From positions 1 to 64,000 of IMG/VR virus record IMGVR_UViG_3300023082_000002: a stretch of DNA of 64,000 nucleotides; one strand, written 5' to 3'. Of the stretch, positions 39,814 through 58,126 are shown one piece after another. Source of the stretch: a virus. The notes beneath the pieces were generated by a model. It did no database searches, had not been told where the DNA came from, and saw only the letters and a list, made by a program, of their open reading frames with translations. Both the position numbers and the translations under genes were made by a program. The number at the start of each line of letters is the position of its first letter. Positions within the stretch are counted from its first letter, which is position 1.

Positions 39814-39971
39814 GAGAATGTCACGTAATCTGACGTGTCGATCCCGATGACATTCGACCCCTTGCGGCCTGCAAACTCCTTGTCGAACTCGGCCTTGTCG
39901 GTCGTGTCCGTCATGAGAATCCAGCTCCCGTCATCGGGATTCTGAACAAGCATCAGGTAGTGGGTTTCCAT
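39810..39971 (-). CDS. 53-aa hypothetical protein (not in ORF track)
   Basis: TAATG coupling with the recombinase stop. Confidence 0.55.
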   Translation of the reverse strand: METHYLMLVQNPDDGSWILMTDTTDKAEFDKEFAGRKGSNVIGIDTSDYVTFS

Positions 39972-40807
39972 TAGAACTGAACCGCCTCTCGCAGCGCCGC
40001 TTCATTGACGCCTGTGTAGATTTCTGTCGTGGTGACGTTGCCGTGACCCAGGAGCTCCTGGACCAGTCGAATGTTGCGCGTTCTCTCAAACACCAGGGTG
40101 GCGAATGTGTGACGCATGTCGTGTGATGCGATCGGTCGTGACAGCTTTGCACGCTCGCCCAGTGCTGTGATGACCCGACGGGCTGGTCGATCAGAGTAGG
40201 TAATGAGACAGGAGTCATTACCTCTAAGGATCGCCTCGGCGTAGCACTCCGAGATAGCGGCCCATGCTTCATCGGACACAGGTACGATGCGGGTCTTGTC
40301 ACCCTTGCCGCGAATCGAAACGGTCATATCGTGCAGATTGAACCACGAAGGACGAGTGTCACGTGCCTCACTGATGCGGCATCCGATAAGTCCGGTCAGG
40401 CTAACAAGGGCCTTTTGCTCGGGGTTGGACGCCGCATCAATCATACGAAGCAAACCATCCTTGCCCTCGCTGATCGGGTGTGCGATGCCACGAGCGGTGT
40501 GCGGCGGCATGTAGTCATCGAGGATCAGCGGGTCACCCGCCCACTTCGCCCACACCTTGACCGAAGTGAGGCGGCGTCCAGTTGTCTTGGGCGAGAGGAG
40601 GGGTCGACTCAGGTTCAGCCACTTCTGTGCTGCTTCCTCCAGGGACTCCATCGGAATCGCCGTCTTCCCCGACTCCGCTAGAAGAATCAGAAGGTCCGAC
40701 CGATACGCCTTGCATGTATGCTTCGACAGCCCCCTTCCTAAACACCACGCGTGGAACTGCTCGATAGACTCTGTCGAAAGAGTCGTCGCCCGCTGCAAAC
40801 GCTTCAT
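39971..40807 (-). CDS. tyrosine recombinase (XerC/D-like, no arm-binding domain)
   Basis: GCRISE, GKGDKTR, HDMRH, LLGH, TTEIY catalytic residues. Confidence 0.92.
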   Translation of the reverse strand: MKRLQRATTLSTESIEQFHAWCLGRGLSKHTCKAYRSDLLILLAESGKTAIPMESLEEAAQKWLNLSRPLLSPKTTGRRLTSVKVWAKWAGDPLILDDYMPPHTARGIAHPISEGKDGLLRMIDAASNPEQKALVSLTGLIGCRISEARDTRPSWFNLHDMTVSIRGKGDKTRIVPVSDEAWAAISECYAEAILRGNDSCLITYSDRPARRVITALGERAKLSRPIASHDMRHTFATLVFERTRNIRLVQELLGHGNVTTTEIYTGVNEAALREAVQF

Positions 40808-51519: not shown

Positions 51520-52131
51520 TTAGTTGGTGCGGGTACGTCGGCTGTAAGATGACGCGTTAAACGCCTTGAAATGTACTGGGCAGAACCAGTAGTCGATCCC
51601 GCTGAGTGTGGTGTGCTCGATCGCCTGCTCGGTGCAGGTGTACGGAGTGTCCGAGAAGGATGCAGCACATGTGTGCTTGTTCTCGAGTGGCACCCATGCC
51701 GTCCGCCCGTGGGTGCCCTCGTAATCACTCATCGACAGACGCCACGACAGGTCATGCTTCTTCATGAGGTTGCGAGCGCGACGAAGCTGCATTCCCCAGT
51801 AACCCTCTAGGGTTTCGAGGTCGTCGCCCTGCCAGAGGATGACACGCACGTCTACTAGTGGTGCAAAGCCGTCAGCAAAGACGGTGTTGAAGTGTGCTGC
51901 AGGCGATAGCTCGCCGTAGAGCCAGTCGTCTCCGGTCAGCATGCTCTCGGCAGTGAACTCGATGAGCGGACCATACTTGGCCGTTGTCCACCGCAGTTCG
52001 TCGACGTCGCGCTTGACGACGGGCTCGCTACTGACGGGCACAGCGTCGACGTAGACGGACAGGATAGGCCGCTGTGGCGGGTCCAGTAGCCGAAGGTCGG
52101 AAACCTTCGCGTCGACAATGTTGACATTCAC
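51520..52131 (-). CDS. hypothetical protein
   Basis: C-terminal C...C...FCPVH. Confidence 0.6.
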   Translation of the reverse strand: MNVNIVDAKVSDLRLLDPPQRPILSVYVDAVPVSSEPVVKRDVDELRWTTAKYGPLIEFTAESMLTGDDWLYGELSPAAHFNTVFADGFAPLVDVRVILWQGDDLETLEGYWGMQLRRARNLMKKHDLSWRLSMSDYEGTHGRTAWVPLENKHTCAASFSDTPYTCTEQAIEHTTLSGIDYWFCPVHFKAFNASSYSRRTRTN

Positions 52132-52156
52132 GGGTGCGTGCTCGATTCTTGAGTAG

Positions 52157-52633
52157 TTACTTGAGGTCAGAGTTGCACTGCATAGCAGCCTTATCGAGGT
52201 TGCGCTCGACAGTAAGGATGGTGTCTACTGTCTCGTCATAAGCCTCAGAGATGTCGTTGAGTTTGTTAGACCCAGCGATCATACCATTGTTGTCGTCGCG
52301 GGCGTCGGCCTTGCGAATGTCTGAGACGATCACCTGCACATCGTCGGGAGCGGATGCGAGGTCACGCGCAAGGTTAGACAGTACCTCTGTAAGCTGCGTC
52401 ATCTGCACGCACGAATCAGGGTAATCAACCTTGGTCTTTGTGACCACCTTTGTCTCGACCTTGGGTGCCGAGGTAGTAGGTCCCTGGTTAATCGGCTTAA
52501 CCTTCTCCTCTTCGGGAGAATTGAGCGAGCCAAGGATATAGAGAGCGACCATGACTCCGACTACCCACGCGATGATCTTGTGGGACCGCTTAGCGTTGTA
52601 CCACTTCTTGAAGTTAGCTCGGTGCTTGCTCAT
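52157..52633 (-). CDS. membrane-anchored extracellular protein
   Basis: Basic N terminus, single TM, T/K/V linker, helical domain with 2 Cys. Confidence 0.7.
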   Translation of the reverse strand: MSKHRANFKKWYNAKRSHKIIAWVVGVMVALYILGSLNSPEEEKVKPINQGPTTSAPKVETKVVTKTKVDYPDSCVQMTQLTEVLSNLARDLASAPDDVQVIVSDIRKADARDDNNGMIAGSNKLNDISEAYDETVDTILTVERNLDKAAMQCNSDLK

Positions 52634-53079
52634 CCTTCGTACGGCCCCTCGGTCTCGTCGATCGTGGCAACGTACTCGTCGTCCTTCTTCTCGCACTCCG
52701 GGCCGATGCCGTAATAGCGCGAACGAGGATCGGTCAGCTCCTTGCCGCACGAGCAGCAACGACCGATGACGTTGGCGTACTCCCGCTGATACTTCACGGG
52801 GTTCAGGGCAGCCATGAGGAGGGCGGGCTCGGCGAGGAGGTTGAACCAGTACATCTGCCCGTCAGGGTAGACGATGAACGCGATACGGTACTCTTCACCG
52901 TGCTGGGTCTGCACCTTGAGGCAGTCCTTGAACCGTCCGTAGGTGGGTCGCGTCACCCGAATGAAGACATAGTCCTCGTCATCACTGTCCCGGCAGGCGA
53001 AGCGTGCGCTCGGGATGGTGTCGAGAATCATGGCTGGAATCATGGTCCGCGTACGGTTGGCAGGCAGTTCAGTATTCAT
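52630..53079 (-). CDS. DUF6011-like protein
   Basis: GRCCSCGKELTDPRSRYYGIGPEC. Confidence 0.75.
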   Translation of the reverse strand: MNTELPANRTRTMIPAMILDTIPSARFACRDSDDEDYVFIRVTRPTYGRFKDCLKVQTQHGEEYRIAFIVYPDGQMYWFNLLAEPALLMAALNPVKYQREYANVIGRCCSCGKELTDPRSRYYGIGPECEKKDDEYVATIDETEGPYEG

Positions 53080-53109
53080 ATTCTTCTCCTCGGTGTAGAG
53101 GGTTAGGGT

Positions 53110-53345
53110 GTCGGCTCGTGTACTTCCCATACACGAGCCGACGCAACGGCGTTCAGTCCATTGCACAGAGCAGCCTATGTCTGCTGCTCATGACTCGGCA
53201 CACAGGTTCTCGGAGCCATGATTCTGGCGAGGGACAATGACGAACCTCGCTACATGACCAGCGCGCCAGCGCTCCCGTGTGCCGAGACATGAGCCCCGGT
53301 CCAGCTGAAACGTAGACAGCTGGACCGGGGTGACATGCGACCTAG
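53110..53345 (-). ncRNA. candidate structured RNA / hairpin array
   Basis: Five consecutive stems filling the intergenic gap. Confidence 0.45.
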
Positions 53346-53356
53346 CTGAGACTAGA

Positions 53357-54253
53357 TCAGGCCTTGCGAGCGCCTCGCGACTTGCCGTCCGGGTGCTCCT
53401 CCGCCTTGACGGCGACGATGCCCTCGATTGCCGTCGGGCTGTTGAAGAGGCGGGCGCTGATCGCACCAGAGCTCGGCTTGTCGTCGCCGTACTCCTCGCT
53501 CTTCTTGTTCGCGATCTCGTTGACGGTGAGGAAGTCACCGGACTGCAGGTCCGCGAACGCGCTCAGGATGTGCTTCTCGGTGGACCGACGCGGGCCGCTG
53601 TACGAGGGGCCACCCGAGCTTGCGACCGTGCGACCGGCGGCGAGCTTGGCGACCTTCTTCGCGTCAGCGGTGATCGACTCGGGCACGTCGACGCCGTCCT
53701 CGAGGGCGATGAGCTGGTTGGCCTGCTCGACCAGCTGGGGGACCAGGTCGTTGACCTGCTCGACCCAGTTCTCACCGACACCCTCGGGGACCTTGGCCGA
53801 CGCGACCGACTGCGCCGCGACGAGCGTCGCGATCTTGCTGACGAACGCCTCGGTCGGGTCGGTCGGCTTGGCCGGAGCCTTGGTCGTGCCAGCCGACAGC
53901 GACTTGCGGATGAGGACGTACGACTTGCCGAGCGGGCCGTTGTCGTTCATCAGAGCCTCGCGCATGGCGGTCTCGATGCTGTCACGAGCTGCGTTCTTGT
54001 TCTTCTGACCGTCGAGCGCACGGTACGCCTCGGTGGTCTTGGCGAGCGCCTCGACGCTCAGATCGCCGGTCGTGGTGTCGGCCTCGGGAAGGATCGAGTC
54101 GACCACAGCGGTGAAGGACGAGATGTCGACCGGAACCTCCGGCTTGGCCTCGGCAGCAGGTGCCTCGGTCGAGGGCGTGTCGGTCGGAACAGCCTCGTTC
54201 GACTCGACGGGAGCGGACTCGGAGGCCGTGGCCTCGGGATTGCGACGTGCCAT
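53357..54253 (-). CDS. highly expressed protein with C-terminal winged-helix-like domain
   Basis: Extreme codon bias; LTVNEIA...PSSGAISARL. Confidence 0.7.
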   Translation of the reverse strand: MARRNPEATASESAPVESNEAVPTDTPSTEAPAAEAKPEVPVDISSFTAVVDSILPEADTTTGDLSVEALAKTTEAYRALDGQKNKNAARDSIETAMREALMNDNGPLGKSYVLIRKSLSAGTTKAPAKPTDPTEAFVSKIATLVAAQSVASAKVPEGVGENWVEQVNDLVPQLVEQANQLIALEDGVDVPESITADAKKVAKLAAGRTVASSGGPSYSGPRRSTEKHILSAFADLQSGDFLTVNEIANKKSEEYGDDKPSSGAISARLFNSPTAIEGIVAVKAEEHPDGKSRGARKA

Positions 54254-54324
54254 GATGATTCTCCTGTGTGTGAAGGGTGGCGCACTAGGCAAGGTGCCTC
54301 GTGATCGGGTGGGTTGGCGTTCCC

Positions 54325-54363
54325 ACCTAGAACCACAGTAGCGGTGCTGGTTCTAGGTTGCAA
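54325..54363 (-). promoter_or_regulatory. SigA-type promoter with embedded 11-bp inverted repeat
   Basis: TTGCAA-17-TACTGT; ACCTAGAACCA (54325-35) / TGGTTCTAGGT (54348-58); A-rich UP-like tract upstream. Confidence 0.8.
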
Positions 54364-54438
54364 GGGGATTGGGAAGCTTTTTTCTTAGGTCGTTATCGGT
54401 CCCAAAAATTTGACTGAAAACAACCTGACATCCCATCA

Positions 54439-54472
54439 CCGCACCCAGGCATTCTTCAATACCAGGGTGCGG
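54439..54472 (-). terminator. hairpin after the LPXTG gene
   Basis: CCGCACCC...GGGTGCGG stem. Confidence 0.55.
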
Positions 54473-54480
54473 CAAAAGAA

Positions 54481-55782
54481 CTACAGGTTGCGCTTCGCGT
54501 TGACCTTGCTCGTAGCAGCTCCGATCAAAGCCAGACCAACCAAAAGCAGTAGACTGCCGATGATGATGATAGCGATGCTCGGACCACCCGTTGCAGGAAG
54601 AACAGCAGATTGGTCTGTGTACGACCTTTCTGTTTCCTCGCTGATCGGCGTAGCGATCTCACCCTTGTCCTTGGGCGCGTCCACCTTCGGAGGCGTGACA
54701 ACGACTGGAGGCGTGACAACCGGAGGAACTGGAGGAGTGACGACTGGAGGCGTAACGACCGGAGGAACCGGGGGCGTAACGACCTCTTCACACTCGGCAT
54801 CGGCCAACTCTTCTGGAGTAGCAGGCCGCGTGCCGGTAGGTGCCGTAGTCAGAACCTCTTCACCTTCCACCCACTGGTTGCCAATCGGCTCGTAGACAAA
54901 AGGCGTAGTCCAGGTGTACGTGTAGTACTCGACCAGCTTCGTGTCGCAGACGAGGTCTTCGTCAACTTCTGTACGCACAAGCGCCGGGGGCTGGGGCGGA
55001 ACTACGGGCGGAGGGCAGGTCTTGAGCTCTGCGTCTGTCGCCCATCGGTCCGACTTGACTTCGCGTGTCGAGGTGCTCTCGATCCACTCGTTCTTGTCCT
55101 TGTCGAGAGTGTAGTCGTACGTCGTGTACGTAGTGACGATGTTGACCTTTTCGGTATCACAGACCAGAGTCTCCTTGACCTCTGTTGTCTGATCCTTGTG
55201 AGGCTTCGGCGGCACAACAACCGGCTTCTTGCAATCATCGTACTGCAGCAGGGATGTATCACCCTTCGCGGCGACGGTCTGGGTGTCACCCTTCTTGGTG
55301 TACGTGAAGCCTTCGTAGATGTCGCCTGAGTGGTCGACATGTCCCGAGTTGAAGAACGCTGCAACACTCACAGTGATCTTGGTGAAGGGGTTCGACTCGC
55401 TACCAGTCGCGTGACAGAGAGTGACCTTCTTGCTCTCTGTGTCATCAGCCGGCTCGCCACAGGGCCCGACCGAACCGGACTTTGACTGCTTGAAGCCACC
55501 GTCCTCGGCTTGGATCGTAGCGGACCAGCTGGTTGTCTTCCCGTTTTGCGGAACGGGAATGACCTTGTTCAGCGAACTGCCAAACGTACCGGAGTCGGTC
55601 TTGCCGTCGACCGTGACGGTCCACTTGTTTGACTTGTTGCCTTCATACGAGTCCGCCTTGAGAACGACACCCTGGCACGAAGCGCTGATGTCTGGCGTAT
55701 GCGCCGGTGCAGGGCTGGCGAGAACCGTGGCTGGCGCCAGAATTCCAATCAGCATCGCGACGGCGATGAGTGTGCGTTTCAT
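54481..55782 (-). CDS. sortase-anchored (LPATG) cell-surface protein
   Basis: Sec signal peptide (MKRTLIAVAML...APA), Pro/Val/Thr stalk, LPATG + TM + basic tail. Confidence 0.88.
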   Translation of the reverse strand: MKRTLIAVAMLIGILAPATVLASPAPAHTPDISASCQGVVLKADSYEGNKSNKWTVTVDGKTDSGTFGSSLNKVIPVPQNGKTTSWSATIQAEDGGFKQSKSGSVGPCGEPADDTESKKVTLCHATGSESNPFTKITVSVAAFFNSGHVDHSGDIYEGFTYTKKGDTQTVAAKGDTSLLQYDDCKKPVVVPPKPHKDQTTEVKETLVCDTEKVNIVTTYTTYDYTLDKDKNEWIESTSTREVKSDRWATDAELKTCPPPVVPPQPPALVRTEVDEDLVCDTKLVEYYTYTWTTPFVYEPIGNQWVEGEEVLTTAPTGTRPATPEELADAECEEVVTPPVPPVVTPPVVTPPVPPVVTPPVVVTPPKVDAPKDKGEIATPISEETERSYTDQSAVLPATGGPSIAIIIIGSLLLLVGLALIGAATSKVNAKRNL

Positions 55783-55838
55783 GAACTGTCTCCTGTTTTG
55801 CGGTTGACTGGCCGGTTGACTAGTCAAGAATGTGAGTG

Positions 55839-56033
55839 TTACAACTCTCGAAGCTGCAACTTGGTATCGCCCTCAAGCTTTCCAGCGAGGGTAATACGAT
55901 GACTGTCCTTCACGGCCATGACCAGGTAGTTACCTGCGATCCGTGGATCGCCGTCACGAGCTTTCTTGATTGCTGACACGAGCGCATCGAGTGCTTCGAC
56001 CGGCCCGTCGATCGTGAGTGTGACTCTAGCCAT
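55839..56033 (-). CDS. hypothetical protein
   Basis: AGGAGG RBS. Confidence 0.6.
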   Translation of the reverse strand: MARVTLTIDGPVEALDALVSAIKKARDGDPRIAGNYLVMAVKDSHRITLAGKLEGDTKLQLREL

Positions 56034-56117
56034 GCTTCCTCCTGCAATCGACGCACACTAACACACATGACGTCTCGCCTGTGTGAATGATCTTGACGTG
56101 ACCTCCGCAGTCGCATG

Positions 56118-56432
56118 TCATCCGTCGACCTCGCGATCACTCATGTGCGGGTCGTCCGAGCGAGTCCCGACAATGACAGCCTGCGCGAAGGCGCGAGCCT
56201 GAGCCAGCTTGTCGGCGTCAGCCTTCTTGCGGGCCTGACGCTCACGCTTCTCCTTGGCCTTGGCCTTGTACTCTTCGCTGTTCCTGCGCTTCTCTTCGAG
56301 GGCCTCGTGCTCCTTCTCGGCGGCACGCTTGATGCGAGACTGCTCGAGTAGTCGAGCGTTACGCTCGGCCTCGGCTGCTTCAAACTCAGCACGCTTCGCT
56401 GCTGCCTGCTCGCGCTTCTGCTTCTTGTTCAC
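56118..56432 (-). CDS. basic coiled-coil protein
   Basis: K/R/E/A-rich; AGGAG RBS. Confidence 0.65.
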   Translation of the reverse strand: MNKKQKREQAAAKRAEFEAAEAERNARLLEQSRIKRAAEKEHEALEEKRRNSEEYKAKAKEKRERQARKKADADKLAQARAFAQAVIVGTRSDDPHMSDREVDG

Positions 56433-56668
56433 TTGACACTCCTGAGATGACGTTTCGGTTTGACTGGTCGATAGACCTCTCGAAGGTGAGAGGAAAGCAT
56501 GGCGTCTAGGGCTCGGTCGCGGGATTCGAGCACTACTGGGATCAAGGCACTGTTCTCTAGGAATGCGGCCCTGTCGCCGTCCAGGAGCGCCTGTGCCTGG
56601 CGCGCAACCAGGTCACGGTACTGGGTGCGGGTCTCGTCGTGCGCGGGCCGCATATCGCGATTAAGCAT
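56429..56668 (-). CDS. hypothetical protein
   Basis: Start reassigned to MLNRD. Confidence 0.5.
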   Translation of the reverse strand: MLNRDMRPAHDETRTQYRDLVARQAQALLDGDRAAFLENSALIPVVLESRDRALDAMLSSHLREVYRPVKPKRHLRSVK

Positions 56669-57200
56669 CGTGACCAGACCAGACACACTCGGTGGTGTCG
56701 GGAGTGCAGTGACACTTCGCCTCACACGCAGGGCAGTCGATGAGGTGGCCAGGGTGATGCGGGTAGTCGACGTGCTCGAACTGATCGTGCCCGGGAGCTC
56801 CCTTGTCCGCTTGACCACACGAACATCCCTCGACCTGGCGATCGTTCTCCCACGACTCGTAAGCCTTCTCGAATCGAGCGTAAGCAGCACGCGCTGCTTC
56901 CTCGGCAAGGGTGCCCGTGCCGTAGTAGGTGAACACGAACACGAAGCCAGCCGAGTCGCGCACGTCGATGTACCAACCAGCATCAGGCTTGTTGATCGCT
57001 TCCGTGCGATCCTCGGCGAGGAAGTCATCACTCACGAAGCGGAGGTAGGCGTAGCCGTGCGTGAAGTCGTTCTGGTCGCCGGTCGAATCGACCTCGGTCT
57101 GCTCGCTGTCGTGCCACCTGAACCAGTGATCGTACTTCTGGTTCATCAGGTCGACCTTCTCGCCCTGGGGCAGGCCCATGATGTCGATAAGCGAAGTCAT
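56661..57200 (-). CDS. hypothetical protein with Cys/His-rich C terminus
   Basis: CSCG...H...HH...CPAC..CHC...C; AGGAG RBS. Confidence 0.7.
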   Translation of the reverse strand: MTSLIDIMGLPQGEKVDLMNQKYDHWFRWHDSEQTEVDSTGDQNDFTHGYAYLRFVSDDFLAEDRTEAINKPDAGWYIDVRDSAGFVFVFTYYGTGTLAEEAARAAYARFEKAYESWENDRQVEGCSCGQADKGAPGHDQFEHVDYPHHPGHLIDCPACEAKCHCTPDTTECVWSGHDA

Positions 57201-57258
57201 CTCATTCTCCTAAGTGTGTAGGGTGTTAGTCGAGTCTAGCGTGACTGGGAACGTCTGT

Positions 57259-57438
57259 CTATGGTTTGCGTGAGGGAATGTCGTCGTCACTCCACATGAG
57301 GCAGATGACTAGACACCACACCGAGCCGATCGCGAAGATAGCTCCGACAACTACTGGTGTCCACTCGTATGTGACTGCCAGTATCCAGAACACAAACGAC
57401 ACCGCGAAGATGATGCGCAGGAGAATAATGGTTCTCAT
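57259..57438 (-). CDS. small 2-TM membrane protein
   Basis: Two hydrophobic helices; ATGA coupling. Confidence 0.6.
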   Translation of the reverse strand: MRTIILLRIIFAVSFVFWILAVTYEWTPVVVGAIFAIGSVWCLVICLMWSDDDIPSRKP

Positions 57439-57584
57439 CGGAACTTCATCTCCGAAATGCGCTTGTTGGAAGCGTCGATCTCGCGCTGCATGCGCCTGAT
57501 CTCGGCAATTTTCTCTGCCGTTGTCATCTCGGATGCAGACTTGACTGGGGTAGGCAGTTCTTGGTGGCAGGTGTGACACTTCAT
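57435..57584 (-). CDS. 49-aa hypothetical protein (not in ORF track)
   Basis: MKCHTCHQ...; coupled on both sides. Confidence 0.55.
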   Translation of the reverse strand: MKCHTCHQELPTPVKSASEMTTAEKIAEIRRMQREIDASNKRISEMKFR

Positions 57585-58126
57585 GACTGGTACTCCCAGG
57601 TCTCGTAGAAGTTGGCTGGCATTGCGTTGCGCGTGGACTTGAGGTGACTGTTCACGTACTCGTCGGCGTTAAACTCCTGGTCACGCCACTCGATGCGCTC
57701 GCTAGGGAGGAGGCGCGATGTCGTCCGGTCAAACGAGAGCAGGCGGACTGTGGCACGACGCTGCTCTAGGCGGCGAACAAAGTCCGTTCCACGCTCTACC
57801 TCGGTAATGACTCGCATCACGACATAGACTCGCGTGGCTGTTACGTCTACACGGATCATCTCGTGGCATGCAGCGATTGCGAACGGACGGCCTAGGGACA
57901 CGCGCAGCGACCTACGGAGGGCCAGCTGGGGGTCGAGGTCATCGTCGGCCACCGTGGCGTCCGCGTGGCCGTAGACGTCGCTGAAACGTGCCATGCCACC
58001 CTCGTAGTGCGTCTCGATCATGGCAGCGAGTTGGTCAGTACGCATGGCGTCAATGATCGAGGCGATGTCGGGCATGATGCGGTTGAGCCACCAGCGCATG
58101 TCGGCACGCAGACTCAGTGTACTCAT
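57581..58126 (-). CDS. hypothetical protein
   Basis: ATGA coupling. Confidence 0.6.
   Translation of the reverse strand: MSTLSLRADMRWWLNRIMPDIASIIDAMRTDQLAAMIETHYEGGMARFSDVYGHADATVADDDLDPQLALRRSLRVSLGRPFAIAACHEMIRVDVTATRVYVVMRVITEVERGTDFVRRLEQRRATVRLLSFDRTTSRLLPSERIEWRDQEFNADEYVNSHLKSTRNAMPANFYETWEYQS

What the first reader, a model, noticed from the sequence alone, without database searches (positions are those of the whole stretch)
54481..55782. Phage-encoded sortase (LPATG) substrate among early genes
Seen: complete cell-wall sorting architecture with signal peptide, a Cys-bracketed beta domain, a KVTLCHATGSESNPF...GHVDHSGDI His/Cys module, two tandem ~60-aa repeats (TEVKETLVCDT...W...R.AT.AEL..C / TEVDEDLVCDT...W...R.ATPEEL...C), a VVTPP stalk, then LPATG-TM-basic tail. 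No sortase is encoded in the window, so the host enzyme would be needed. Inference: the phage covalently decorates the infected cell wall, possibly for receptor masking/superinfection exclusion, adhesion to new hosts, or competition for host sortase or lipid II. The nearby anchored protein 52157-52633 may be a partner.
Basis: partly seen in the sequence, partly recalled or inferred. Interest (0 to 1): 0.7.

Follow-up and report, generated by a model that had tools for sequence, protein, structure and literature searches.

The report
Phage-carried sortase-anchored surface protein
An uncultured soil phage of actinobacteria carries an intact gene for a four-domain surface protein that the infected cell's own sortase would probably weld to its wall; unnoticed relatives sit in many cultured Microbacterium and Arthrobacter phages, so it is one more case of a little-studied kind, not a one-off.

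Summary
ORF 54481-55782(-) encodes 433 aa. It has a Sec-type signal peptide and four domains, each bracketed by a Cys pair: an N-terminal Ig-like domain, the His/Cys 'HC' module, and two diverged repeats. A VVTPP stalk follows, then LPATG, a 26-residue hydrophobic segment and a basic tail.

The gene lies inside a complete 76 kb phage genome that encodes no sortase. It is absent from the same slot in Gordonia phage Woes and in eight related uncultured phages. Its base composition matches the phage's.

All modules belong to a large shuffled pool of actinobacterial surface proteins (708 representatives). About half of the 187 examined end in LPxTG or LAxTG.

It is not unique. Five sampled Microbacterium phage proteins have a signal peptide and an LAQTG signal; two of these phages are recorded as lytic. 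Three of the five carry the N domain. Arthrobacter phages Qui and Racecar carry the HC module. This scan has also noted phage sortase substrates on other DNA many times.

Wall anchoring is probable but unproven: the host is unknown, and TIGR01167 scores 11.8 bits against a 15.9 cut-off. The function (exclusion or adhesion) is inferred only. The proposed partner gene is not supported.

Verdict: new member of a known kind, moderate interest.

The parts
54481..55782 (-). Whole gene (433 aa plus stop): secreted, C-terminally sorted modular surface protein (P0001)
   Evidence: ORF list and translation. It is the only ORF with a sorting-signal tail in the phage. GC 57.9%, GC3 68.4% and a codon index of 0.749 all fall within the range of the other phage genes.
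55790..55794 (-). Ribosome-binding site AGGAG, 7 nt before the ATG
   Evidence: Sequence read.
55702..55782 (-). Signal peptide, residues 1-27 (MKR, hydrophobic core, APA|HTP)
   Evidence: Hydropathy and motif. In 17 homologues the cleavage motif A-x-A|HTP aligns in the same column. SignalP was not available.
55447..55701 (-). N domain, residues 28-112, beta sandwich bracketed by C36 and C108
   Evidence: The AlphaFold model has pLDDT of about 97 here. The best fold matches are generic Ig/FN3-like, with VIA Z 7.0 at best. It is a large sequence family, with members in Nocardioides and other Actinomycetota.
55213..55446 (-). HC module, residues 113-190: CHATGS..NP..GHxDHxGDI..C..P
   Evidence: C123, H124, H148, H151, D154 and C184 are 98-100% conserved in 61 module copies. 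It is 80% identical to P0002. pLDDT is above 90. No solved structure matches.
54997..55197 (-). Repeat R1, residues 196-262, long three-stranded beta sheet, C208/C256
   Evidence: Model. It matches R2 at 41% identity over 37 aa. The same repeat occurs in many homologues.
54778..54981 (-). Repeat R2, residues 268-335, C279/C331
   Evidence: Same evidence as for R1.
54601..54777 (-). Pro-rich VVTPP stalk and spacer, residues 336-394 (disordered in the model)
   Evidence: pLDDT is 41-54. A 39-nt DNA tandem repeat lies at 54700-54783. The spacer 'GEIATPISEE' is shared with P0002 and P0028.
54484..54600 (-). Cell-wall sorting signal: LPATG (54586-54600), hydrophobic segment (54508-54585), basic tail KVNAKRNL (54484-54507)
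   Evidence: Pattern and hydropathy. TIGR01167 gives 11.8 bits, below the 15.9 cut-off. Comparators reach or pass it: P0002 17.2, P0041 20.9, Kozie gp78 15.9.
54421..54490 (-). Strong hairpin directly after the stop codon (core stem 54436-54475): probable end of the transcription unit
   Evidence: RNA fold of 54290-54490(-): -78.2 kcal/mol, z = -5.15. It has no canonical U tract, so the simple terminator scan did not list it.

Best explanation
The gene is an accessory ('moron-like') gene of a roughly 76 kb actinobacteriophage. It encodes a modular surface protein built from the host phylum's own pool of wall-protein modules.

**Likely course**
1. It is transcribed with the leftward non-structural genes that start near the genome-end control region.
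2. The protein is exported through Sec and cut after APA27.
3. It is folded outside the membrane with one disulfide per domain.
4. It is held in the membrane by its C-terminal helix.
5. The host's sortase cuts it between T398 and G399 and joins it to the peptidoglycan precursor.
6. The VVTPP stalk spans the wall and displays the N, HC, R1 and R2 head on the infected cell.

**Shown:** the gene is intact, phage-linked and complete in every sequence signal; its modules are conserved; the phage has no sortase.

**Inferred:** export, wall anchoring and timing.

**Most likely purpose (inferred, about 0.3):** it changes what can bind to the infected cell. It would mask a wall receptor or hinder adsorption or injection by other phages or by its own progeny. 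This resembles the surface-tethered exclusion proteins Ltp and Llp, but with a covalent wall anchor. The HC module's invariant Cys/His/Asp set suggests a bound metal or a small active site.
For: **Phage context**
- The record is complete with direct terminal repeats.
- PHROG hits to head, tail, helicase, clamp and ATPase families.
- A second assembler gives the same contig.

**Accessory status**
- Woes and 8 uncultured relatives keep the order phrog_6708 homologue, DUF6011 protein, AAA-ATPase. None has this gene.

**Intact and adapted**
- RBS present.
- Composition typical of the phage.
- All six conserved HC residues and all four Cys pairs present.
- Confident domain models, pLDDT above 90.

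**Sorting signal**
- LPATG plus hydrophobic stretch plus basic tail, unique in the genome.
- 92 of 187 homologues end in L[PA]xTG-type signals.
- JGI names three of them LPXTG-anchored.
- No phage sortase.

**The same kind in other phages**
- Kozie gp78, Cressida gp81, ClearAsMud gp84, Dewdrop gp123 and Hyperion gp70 all have a signal peptide plus LAQTG, a hydrophobic segment and an RRR tail.
- Cressida, ClearAsMud and Dewdrop carry the N domain (HMM E about 1e-8).
- Qui gp82 and Racecar gp190 carry the HC module (E 5e-14 and 2e-15; hhalign 88-93%).
- Foldseek against viral models puts FuzzBuster, Cressida and Qui proteins at the top.
- Cressida and Hyperion are listed as lytic (PMC7302621). 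This argues for a role during lytic infection.

**Surface-tethered exclusion proteins exist**
- Ltp (PMC3952083).
Against: - No expression or protein data exist. The only run holding the sequence is DNA.
- The host is unknown, so a sortase that accepts LPATG is not shown.
- The phage's cultured relatives infect Gordonia, Rhodococcus and Tsukamurella. Their outer mycolate layer would bury a short-stalked wall protein. No cutinase-type LysB was found with PF01083, which is only weak evidence for a host without mycolic acids.
- The curated LPXTG models do not pass: TIGR01167 gives 11.8 bits against 15.9, and PF00746 gives no hit.
- Named-genome relatives of the N domain in Nocardioides end in a different C-terminal signal.
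- Nothing in the sequence points to exclusion rather than adhesion or another role.
- The gene is found in one phage genome only, so conservation under selection cannot be measured.
Confidence: 0.6

Rival explanations
1. It is an adhesin or aggregation factor. The displayed N, HC and R head binds neighbouring cells or plant-litter polymers. The infected cell then stays in a dense patch of hosts, and the burst reaches new hosts quickly.
For: - The architecture (Ig-like head, flat beta-sheet repeats, Pro-rich stalk, wall anchor) is that of Gram-positive adhesins.
- Weak fold rows to SasG/Aap G5-E stalk repeats recur (VIA Z 3.4-3.9; Foldseek E 0.14-0.46).
- The prophage-borne LPXTG protein SasX promotes colonisation (PMC7047976).
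- The sample is leaf litter.
Against: - No ligand-binding family was recognised: no Pfam hit and no specific PDB match.
- The fold rows are below the level that means more than a common arrangement.
- The benefit to a lytic phage is indirect.
Confidence: 0.2
2. It is a membrane-tethered protein that is not processed by sortase. The C-terminal helix alone holds it at the outer face of the membrane, either because the host has no matching sortase or because the signal is off-consensus.
For: - TIGR01167 is below its cut-off and PF00746 gives no hit.
- The hydrophobic segment is long (26 residues) and the tail is only moderately basic.
- Arthrobacter phage relatives carry non-canonical LPEMG and MPDTG motifs.
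- Nocardioides relatives use another C-terminal signal.
- The host is unknown.
Against: - The pentapeptide is a perfect LPXTG at the canonical distance from the end.
- Close module relatives pass the curated model.
- Half of the family has such signals.
- A Pro-rich wall-spanning stalk makes little sense for a protein that stays at the membrane.
Confidence: 0.15
3. It is a passenger gene. A host surface-protein gene was captured by illegitimate recombination, confers no benefit on the phage, and is on its way to being lost.
For: - It is absent from all close relatives examined.
- There is no close homologue in IMG/VR or among cultured phages by sequence.
- A related phage has a different sortase-signal gene beside an HNH endonuclease, which suggests mobile cargo.
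Against: - The frame is open, the RBS is good and every conserved residue is intact.
- Composition and codon use are typical of the phage, so it is not a fresh import.
- Analogous genes are kept across 59 Microbacterium and 7 Arthrobacter phage records. That is not what neutral cargo would show.
Confidence: 0.1
4. It is an assembly artefact or a host flank. The gene would belong to bacterial DNA joined to a phage contig or to a prophage border.
For: None beyond the bacterial affinities of the modules.
Against: - The record is complete with terminal repeats.
- The gene is flanked on both sides by genes syntenic with Woes-like phages.
- An independent assembler gives one 76,078 bp contig at even depth with no joints or differences.
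Confidence: 0.02

Closest known systems
'Membrane protein' or 'hypothetical protein' genes of cultured Microbacterium phages: Cressida gp81, ClearAsMud gp84, Dewdrop gp123, Kozie gp78, Hyperion gp70
   Same: - Phage-encoded.
- Signal peptide, modular Cys-bracketed domains and an acidic or Pro-rich stalk.
- Sortase-type signal followed by a hydrophobic segment and a basic tail.
- Located among non-structural genes.
- No sortase gene among the annotated genes within about 2-3 kb on either side (whole genomes not checked).
- Cressida, ClearAsMud and Dewdrop share the N domain.
   Different: - They use LAQTG (the class E type) rather than LPATG.
- Their N domain is split by an insertion of about 125-165 aa.
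- They lack the HC module and the R repeats.
- tblastn does not link them to this protein. Only profile and fold comparison do.
Arthrobacter phage Qui gp82 and Racecar gp190 (also Mimi, Atuin, Paella, Talia1610)
   Same: They have a signal peptide, one HC module with the same conserved C, H, H, H, D and C residues, and a C-terminal hydrophobic anchor with a basic tail.
   Different: - They are short (239-263 aa).
- They have no N domain or R repeats.
- Their pentapeptide is non-canonical (LPEMG, MPDTG), so sortase dependence is doubtful.
SasX, the LPXTG surface protein carried by a phiSPbeta-like prophage of Staphylococcus (PMC7047976)
   Same: It is a phage-borne gene whose product depends on the host sortase for wall anchoring and changes the cell surface.
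   Different: - It is from Firmicutes and a temperate prophage, and acts in the lysogen as a colonisation factor.
- No sequence relation was found.
- The present phage group looks lytic or of unknown lifestyle.
Ltp of Streptococcus thermophilus phage TP-J34 (PMC3952083) and Llp of coliphage T5 (from my own knowledge)
   Same: These are phage-encoded proteins with an export signal, tethered on the outer face of the envelope, that block infection by other phages. This is the mechanism I consider most likely here.
   Different: - They are lipoproteins. This signal peptide has no Cys and therefore no lipobox.
- There is no sequence or fold relation.
- The anchor here would be covalent to the wall, not to a lipid.
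Chromosomal sortase substrates of Actinomycetota built from the same N, HC and R modules (P0002, P0003, P0038, P0041, P0069 and 700 more representatives)
   Same: They share the domains, the Cys pairs, VVTPP or PT stalks and LPxTG or LAxTG tails.
   Different: - The N-HC-R-R order is unique among the 187 examined.
- The best full-length relatives are 33-39% identical.
- None has a known function.

Membership tests
Sortase substrates with a C-terminal cell-wall sorting signal (TIGR01167 / PF00746 type) | N-terminal Sec signal peptide | tested here: met
   Rule-based only: MKR, a 19-residue hydrophobic core and APA|H at positions -3/-1. The cleavage motif aligns across 17 homologues. SignalP was not available.
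Sortase substrates with a C-terminal cell-wall sorting signal (TIGR01167 / PF00746 type) | LPXTG-type pentapeptide about 30-40 residues from the C terminus, followed by a hydrophobic segment and a positively charged tail | tested here: met
   LPATG at 395-399, hydrophobic 400-425, tail KVNAKRNL with three basic residues. It is the only such ORF of 642 in the phage.
Sortase substrates with a C-terminal cell-wall sorting signal (TIGR01167 / PF00746 type) | Score above the curated cut-off of the anchor models | tested here: inconclusive
   TIGR01167 matches model positions 1-27 of 34 at 11.8 bits (cut-off 15.9). PF00746 gives no hit at E <= 1. Comparators reach or pass the cut-off: P0002 17.2, P0041 20.9, Kozie gp78 15.9, L045 protein 16.4. 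This is a classifier threshold, not a biological feature.
Sortase substrates with a C-terminal cell-wall sorting signal (TIGR01167 / PF00746 type) | A sortase that accepts the motif is present in the same cell | not testable with these tools
   The phage has none (PF04203). The host is unknown. Named relatives of the modules are in Nocardioides, Microbacteriaceae and Arthrobacter.
Sortase substrates with a C-terminal cell-wall sorting signal (TIGR01167 / PF00746 type) | Covalent link of the Thr carboxyl to peptidoglycan | not testable with these tools
   Needs wall fractionation and mass spectrometry.
Unnamed modular N/HC/R surface-protein family of Actinomycetota | N domain (AHTPxISAxCxGV ... 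SGTFG ... VPQxGxTT.WSA ... GPCG) | tested here: met
   phmmer E down to 2e-52. Alignment with C36, G38, N52, G65, T66, F67 and P107 invariant. 50-55% identity to Nocardioides proteins.
Unnamed modular N/HC/R surface-protein family of Actinomycetota | HC module with conserved C, H, H, H, D and C | tested here: met
   All six residues are present in this protein and are 98-100% conserved across 61 copies.
Unnamed modular N/HC/R surface-protein family of Actinomycetota | Cys-bracketed R repeat of about 65 aa with a central Trp | tested here: met
   Two copies here. The repeat is found in 40 of 187 homologues.
Ltp-type phage superinfection-exclusion lipoproteins | Lipobox with the Cys that is lipidated | tested here: not met
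   There is no Cys in residues 1-35. The first Cys is C36, inside the folded domain. The comparison is therefore of mechanism only.
G5/E-repeat stalks of SasG/Aap | Fold match of the repeats to G5 or E domains | tested here: inconclusive
   VIA Z 3.4-3.9 (5dbl, 4fum, 8deo, 6oh1) and Foldseek E 0.14-0.46. These are below what separates kinship from a common arrangement.

The most novel reading that the evidence does not exclude
Actinobacteriophages, including strictly lytic ones, commonly carry sortase-signal surface proteins drawn from a shared module pool (N, HC, R and the Kozie-type domains). They use the host sortase to fix these proteins covalently to the wall of the infected cell. This would control adsorption or exclude competitors: a covalent, wall-anchored form of superinfection exclusion not yet described. 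The HC module would be a new small metal-binding or catalytic domain.
Probability: 0.22. Interest if true: 0.65.

Novelty: new member of a known kind. Interest (0 to 1): 0.4.

Why it matters
Phage genes whose products are anchored by the host sortase are known from staphylococcal prophages (SasX), where they act in the lysogen.

Here the same device appears in an uncultured actinophage. Once looked for, it also appears in dozens of cultured Microbacterium and Arthrobacter phages, where the genes are annotated only as 'membrane protein' or 'hypothetical protein'. Two of those phages are recorded as lytic. The main genomic survey of Microbacterium phages does not mention sortase or LPXTG (PMC7302621), and the library holds no paper on the subject.

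A lytic phage has only hours to profit from decorating a wall that it will destroy. A role in adsorption control or exclusion is therefore a concrete hypothesis. It can be tested in safe, tractable SEA-PHAGES hosts.

The N and HC modules are also common, uncharacterised parts of actinobacterial surface proteins. A function found through the phage genes would carry over to hundreds of bacterial proteins.

Tried and rejected
**Family and sequence searches**
- Pfam and PHROGs give no family for the protein.
- PDB by sequence gives none.
- tblastn against 50,697 phage records gives nothing at E 1e-3. At E 10 it gives only chance-level rows, plus Racecar, which was later confirmed by profile.
- IMG/VR scans with the protein, with an N-domain alignment and with the neighbouring phrog_6708 protein found no relative. 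The first alignment was too diverse to use.
- A search with the C-terminal 79 residues, aimed at proteins of the host lineage, found only the query.
- A text search for 'CHATGS' found nothing relevant.

**Genome and context searches**
- The genome scan with the single protein found nothing. With the alignment it found 7 loci.
- The genome search gives no relatives for a virus record.
- It gives no taxon names for genomes reached through loci, so the class-wide search gave only a frequency: 19 of 401.
- The host could not be identified.

**Fold searches**
- For the HC and R modules, no PDB match above noise.
- For the N domain, only a generic Ig/FN3 fold.
- The protein atlas gave only unnamed clusters.

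**Expression and regulation**
- No RNA holder is listed for the stretch.
- No sigma-70-like promoter lies directly upstream.

**Other**
- No cutinase-type LysB was found with PF01083. That is one family only, so it is not proof of absence.
Full report
**What is there**

The window is the first 64 kb of a 76,093 bp IMG/VR virus record with direct terminal repeats, rated complete. It is a tailed phage:
- The + strand from 1 to about 22 kb carries head, tail and lysis genes.
- The - strand carries helicase, sliding clamp, nuclease, an AAA-ATPase and a CobT-like protein.

The AAA-ATPase is 42-45% identical to those of Gordonia phages of the Woes type, Tsukamurella phages TIN3/TIN4 and Rhodococcus phage ReqiDocB7. 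It is 47-55% identical to those of seven uncultured IMG/VR phages. The only sequencing run that holds the stretch is a leaf-litter metagenome. An independent assembly of that run gives one 76,078 bp contig that covers 52000-58000 without a single difference.

**The gene**

ORF 54481-55782(-) encodes 433 residues and starts at an ATG 7 nt after AGGAG.
- A signal peptide ending APA|HTP.
- Eight cysteines that bracket four domains (36/108, 123/184, 208/256, 279/331).
- A His/Cys module.
- Two repeats, 41% identical over 37 residues.
- A VVTPP stalk, encoded by a 39-nt tandem DNA repeat.
- LPATG at 395-399, then 26 hydrophobic residues and KVNAKRNL.

A six-frame scan of the whole phage (642 ORFs of at least 60 aa) finds no other ORF with such a tail, even with a relaxed motif. 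PF04203 finds no sortase in the phage.

GC content, GC3 and a codon index computed against 23 other phage genes put the gene in the middle of the phage's range.

A 56-nt spacer without a recognisable promoter separates the gene from the upstream 64-codon gene. A very stable hairpin (z = -5.15) follows the stop. After that come the palindrome and promoter that another reader noted in front of the next gene; the GGTTCTAG half-sites are at 54327-54334 and 54349-54356. The gene therefore looks like the last gene of a leftward transcription unit that begins nearer the genome-end control region. That fits 'early', but by position only.

**What the domains are**

No Pfam, PHROG or PDB sequence match exists. 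An exhaustive phmmer search finds 708 cluster representatives at E <= 1e-3, 218 of them at E <= 1e-10.

I split the protein into modules N, HC, R1 and R2 and mapped these onto 187 retrieved proteins. The modules shuffle freely: N alone, N-R, N-HC, HC-HC, HC-R-R, R-R-R-R and so on. The order N-HC-R-R occurs only here. Ninety-two of the 187 proteins end in an LPxTG or LAxTG-type signal.

| Module | Model confidence | Fold-search result |
|---|---|---|
| N | pLDDT above 90 | Generic Ig/FN3 sandwich, best Z 7.0 |
| HC | pLDDT above 90 | Small alpha/beta module, no solved relative |
| R1, R2 | pLDDT above 90 | Long flat three-stranded sheets; faint resemblance to SasG/Aap stalk repeats, Z 3.4-3.9 |

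In 61 aligned HC copies, C123, H124, H148, H151, D154 and C184 are 98-100% conserved. This reads as one disulfide plus a His/His/His/Asp site, possibly for a metal. That is inference; I could not measure distances in the model.

Named genomes with N-domain relatives are Nocardioides (three), uncultured Actinomycetota and a Microbacteriaceae MAG. HC-HC proteins occur in Arthrobacter. In an even sample of 401 Actinomycetes genomes, 19 have a match. The host of the phage remains unknown.

**Is it really an add-on?**

The gene order is the same in Woes and in eight uncultured relatives: phrog_6708 homologue, DUF6011 protein, small membrane protein, AAA-ATPase, CobT-like protein. None of them has this gene or any large secreted protein in the slot upstream of the phrog_6708 homologue. 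None of the 25 related loci contains a homologue of any module. So the gene is accessory.

The small N-in membrane protein at 52157-52633, proposed as a partner, has positional counterparts in these relatives. It is therefore independent of the finding.

**Is it unique?**

No. The evidence from other phages is as follows.
- **A related phage with an unrelated sortase-signal gene.** L045 (80.9 kb) carries a 355-aa protein with a signal peptide and LANTG signal (TIGR01167 16.4 bits) next to an HNH endonuclease gene.
- **A phage-like contig with a homologue.** A 25 kb, 70% GC soil contig has phage-type replication genes (DnaB-like helicase, recombinase, exonucleases, HNH). It carries a protein with signal peptide, N domain, HC module and an LASTG signal.
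- **Fold search against viral models.** Foldseek against predicted viral structures puts 'membrane proteins' of Microbacterium phages FuzzBuster and Cressida and of Arthrobacter phage Qui at the top.
- **Microbacterium phage sequences confirm it.** Kozie gp78, Cressida gp81, ClearAsMud gp84, Dewdrop gp123 and Hyperion gp70 come from four genera. All have a signal peptide and end in LAQTG, a hydrophobic segment and an RRR tail. Three of them contain the N domain, split by an insertion (HMM E about 1e-8; hhalign 94%).
- **Arthrobacter phage sequences confirm it.** Qui gp82 and Racecar gp190 contain the HC module (E 5e-14 and 2e-15). Their pentapeptides are non-canonical: LPEMG and MPDTG.
- **Spread.** The Kozie-type domain occurs in 59 Microbacterium phage records and the Racecar type in 7 Arthrobacter phage records.
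- **Lifestyle and literature.** Cressida and Hyperion are tabulated as lytic in the survey of Microbacterium phages. That survey never mentions sortase or LPXTG. The paper library holds nothing on sortase signals in actinophages. It documents SasX as a prophage-borne LPXTG protein.
- **This scan.** Its own notes list 67 findings of phage sortases or sortase substrates on other DNA. These are unchecked leads. They agree that the phenomenon recurs.

**How it most likely works**

Steps 1 to 4 follow from established knowledge of Sec export and sortase sorting. Here they are inferred, not shown.
1. Sec export and cleavage after A27.
2. Oxidative folding of four disulfide-bracketed domains.
3. Retention by the C-terminal helix.
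4. Sortase cleavage after T398 and transfer to the wall precursor.
5. Display on a Pro-rich stalk.

The weak points are:
- The host is unknown.
- The LPXTG model score is below its cut-off.
- The cultured relatives of the phage infect mycolate-bearing hosts. No LysB was found with the one family tried.

For the purpose, I favour control of adsorption or exclusion, by analogy with the surface-tethered Ltp. The main reason is that lytic phages keep such genes. Adhesion is the main rival. The sequence cannot decide between them.

**Verdict**

The functional ideas are open, and the partner idea is unsupported. The case is a new member of a known kind. Its added value is that it exposes a widespread family of actinophage genes that the literature at hand does not describe, and that can be tested in safe laboratory hosts.

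Noticed in passing
L045:15293-16360 (+), IMG/VR UViG_3300020034_000007: A related phage (AAA-ATPase 44% identical) carries a different 355-aa secreted protein ending in LANTG, a hydrophobic segment and a basic tail (TIGR01167 16.4 bits). It sits directly after an HNH_3 endonuclease gene and has no sequence relation to the finding.
   Followed up: partly
L050:9317-11521 (+), soil metagenome contig Ga0164308_10000353 (25 kb, GC 70%): A protein with signal peptide, N domain, HC module, further Cys-bracketed domains, a PT stalk and an LASTG signal. It sits between a DnaB-like helicase gene and recombinase, exonuclease and DnaQ-like genes with PHROG hits. This is a second, unrelated phage-like element carrying the same family.
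   Followed up: partly
L054:2470-3732, L056:1788-3065, L058:1489-3195, L059:1597-3189, L060:1594-2919 (cultured Microbacterium phages): Five proteins annotated 'membrane protein' or 'hypothetical protein' all have a signal peptide and an LAQTG sortase-type sorting signal. The Kozie-type domain occurs in 59 Microbacterium phage records. These annotations could be improved.
   Followed up: partly
L055:2435-3154 (Qui gp82) and L053:1378-2169 (Racecar gp190): HC-module proteins of Arthrobacter phages end in LPEMG or MPDTG plus a hydrophobic segment and a basic tail. These may be variant sorting signals or plain membrane anchors. Arthrobacter chromosomal HC-HC proteins (P0006-P0023) also lack LPXTG and share 'NRGFNAQTAAG' before their last helix.
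   Followed up: no
L010, L011, L013, L017 (Nocardioides and uncultured Actinomycetota) and P0004: Chromosomal N-domain proteins end in 'VPTxxDAGL', then about 25 residues, then 'PALLLL...G..RVRRG' instead of LPXTG. This may be a different C-terminal sorting signal.
   Followed up: no
window 55801-55827 (-): The 56-nt spacer before the gene holds the palindrome TTGACTAGTCAA (55816-55827) and two direct copies of AGTCAACCG (55813-55821 and 55801-55809). This may be a binding site for a regulator. There is no -10 element at the right distance.
   Followed up: no
window 39971-40807 (-): A small tyrosine recombinase (PF00589, E 5e-24), so the lifestyle of the phage (lytic or temperate) is not settled. 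An earlier follow-up proposed that it acts on a lox-like site near the genome end.
   Followed up: no
window 52157-52633 (-): A 158-aa protein with a very basic N terminus, one transmembrane helix (residues 19-38) and an outside domain with two Cys. Positional counterparts with an N-terminal helix occur in Woes (gp84) and several uncultured relatives, though without detectable sequence similarity.
   Followed up: partly
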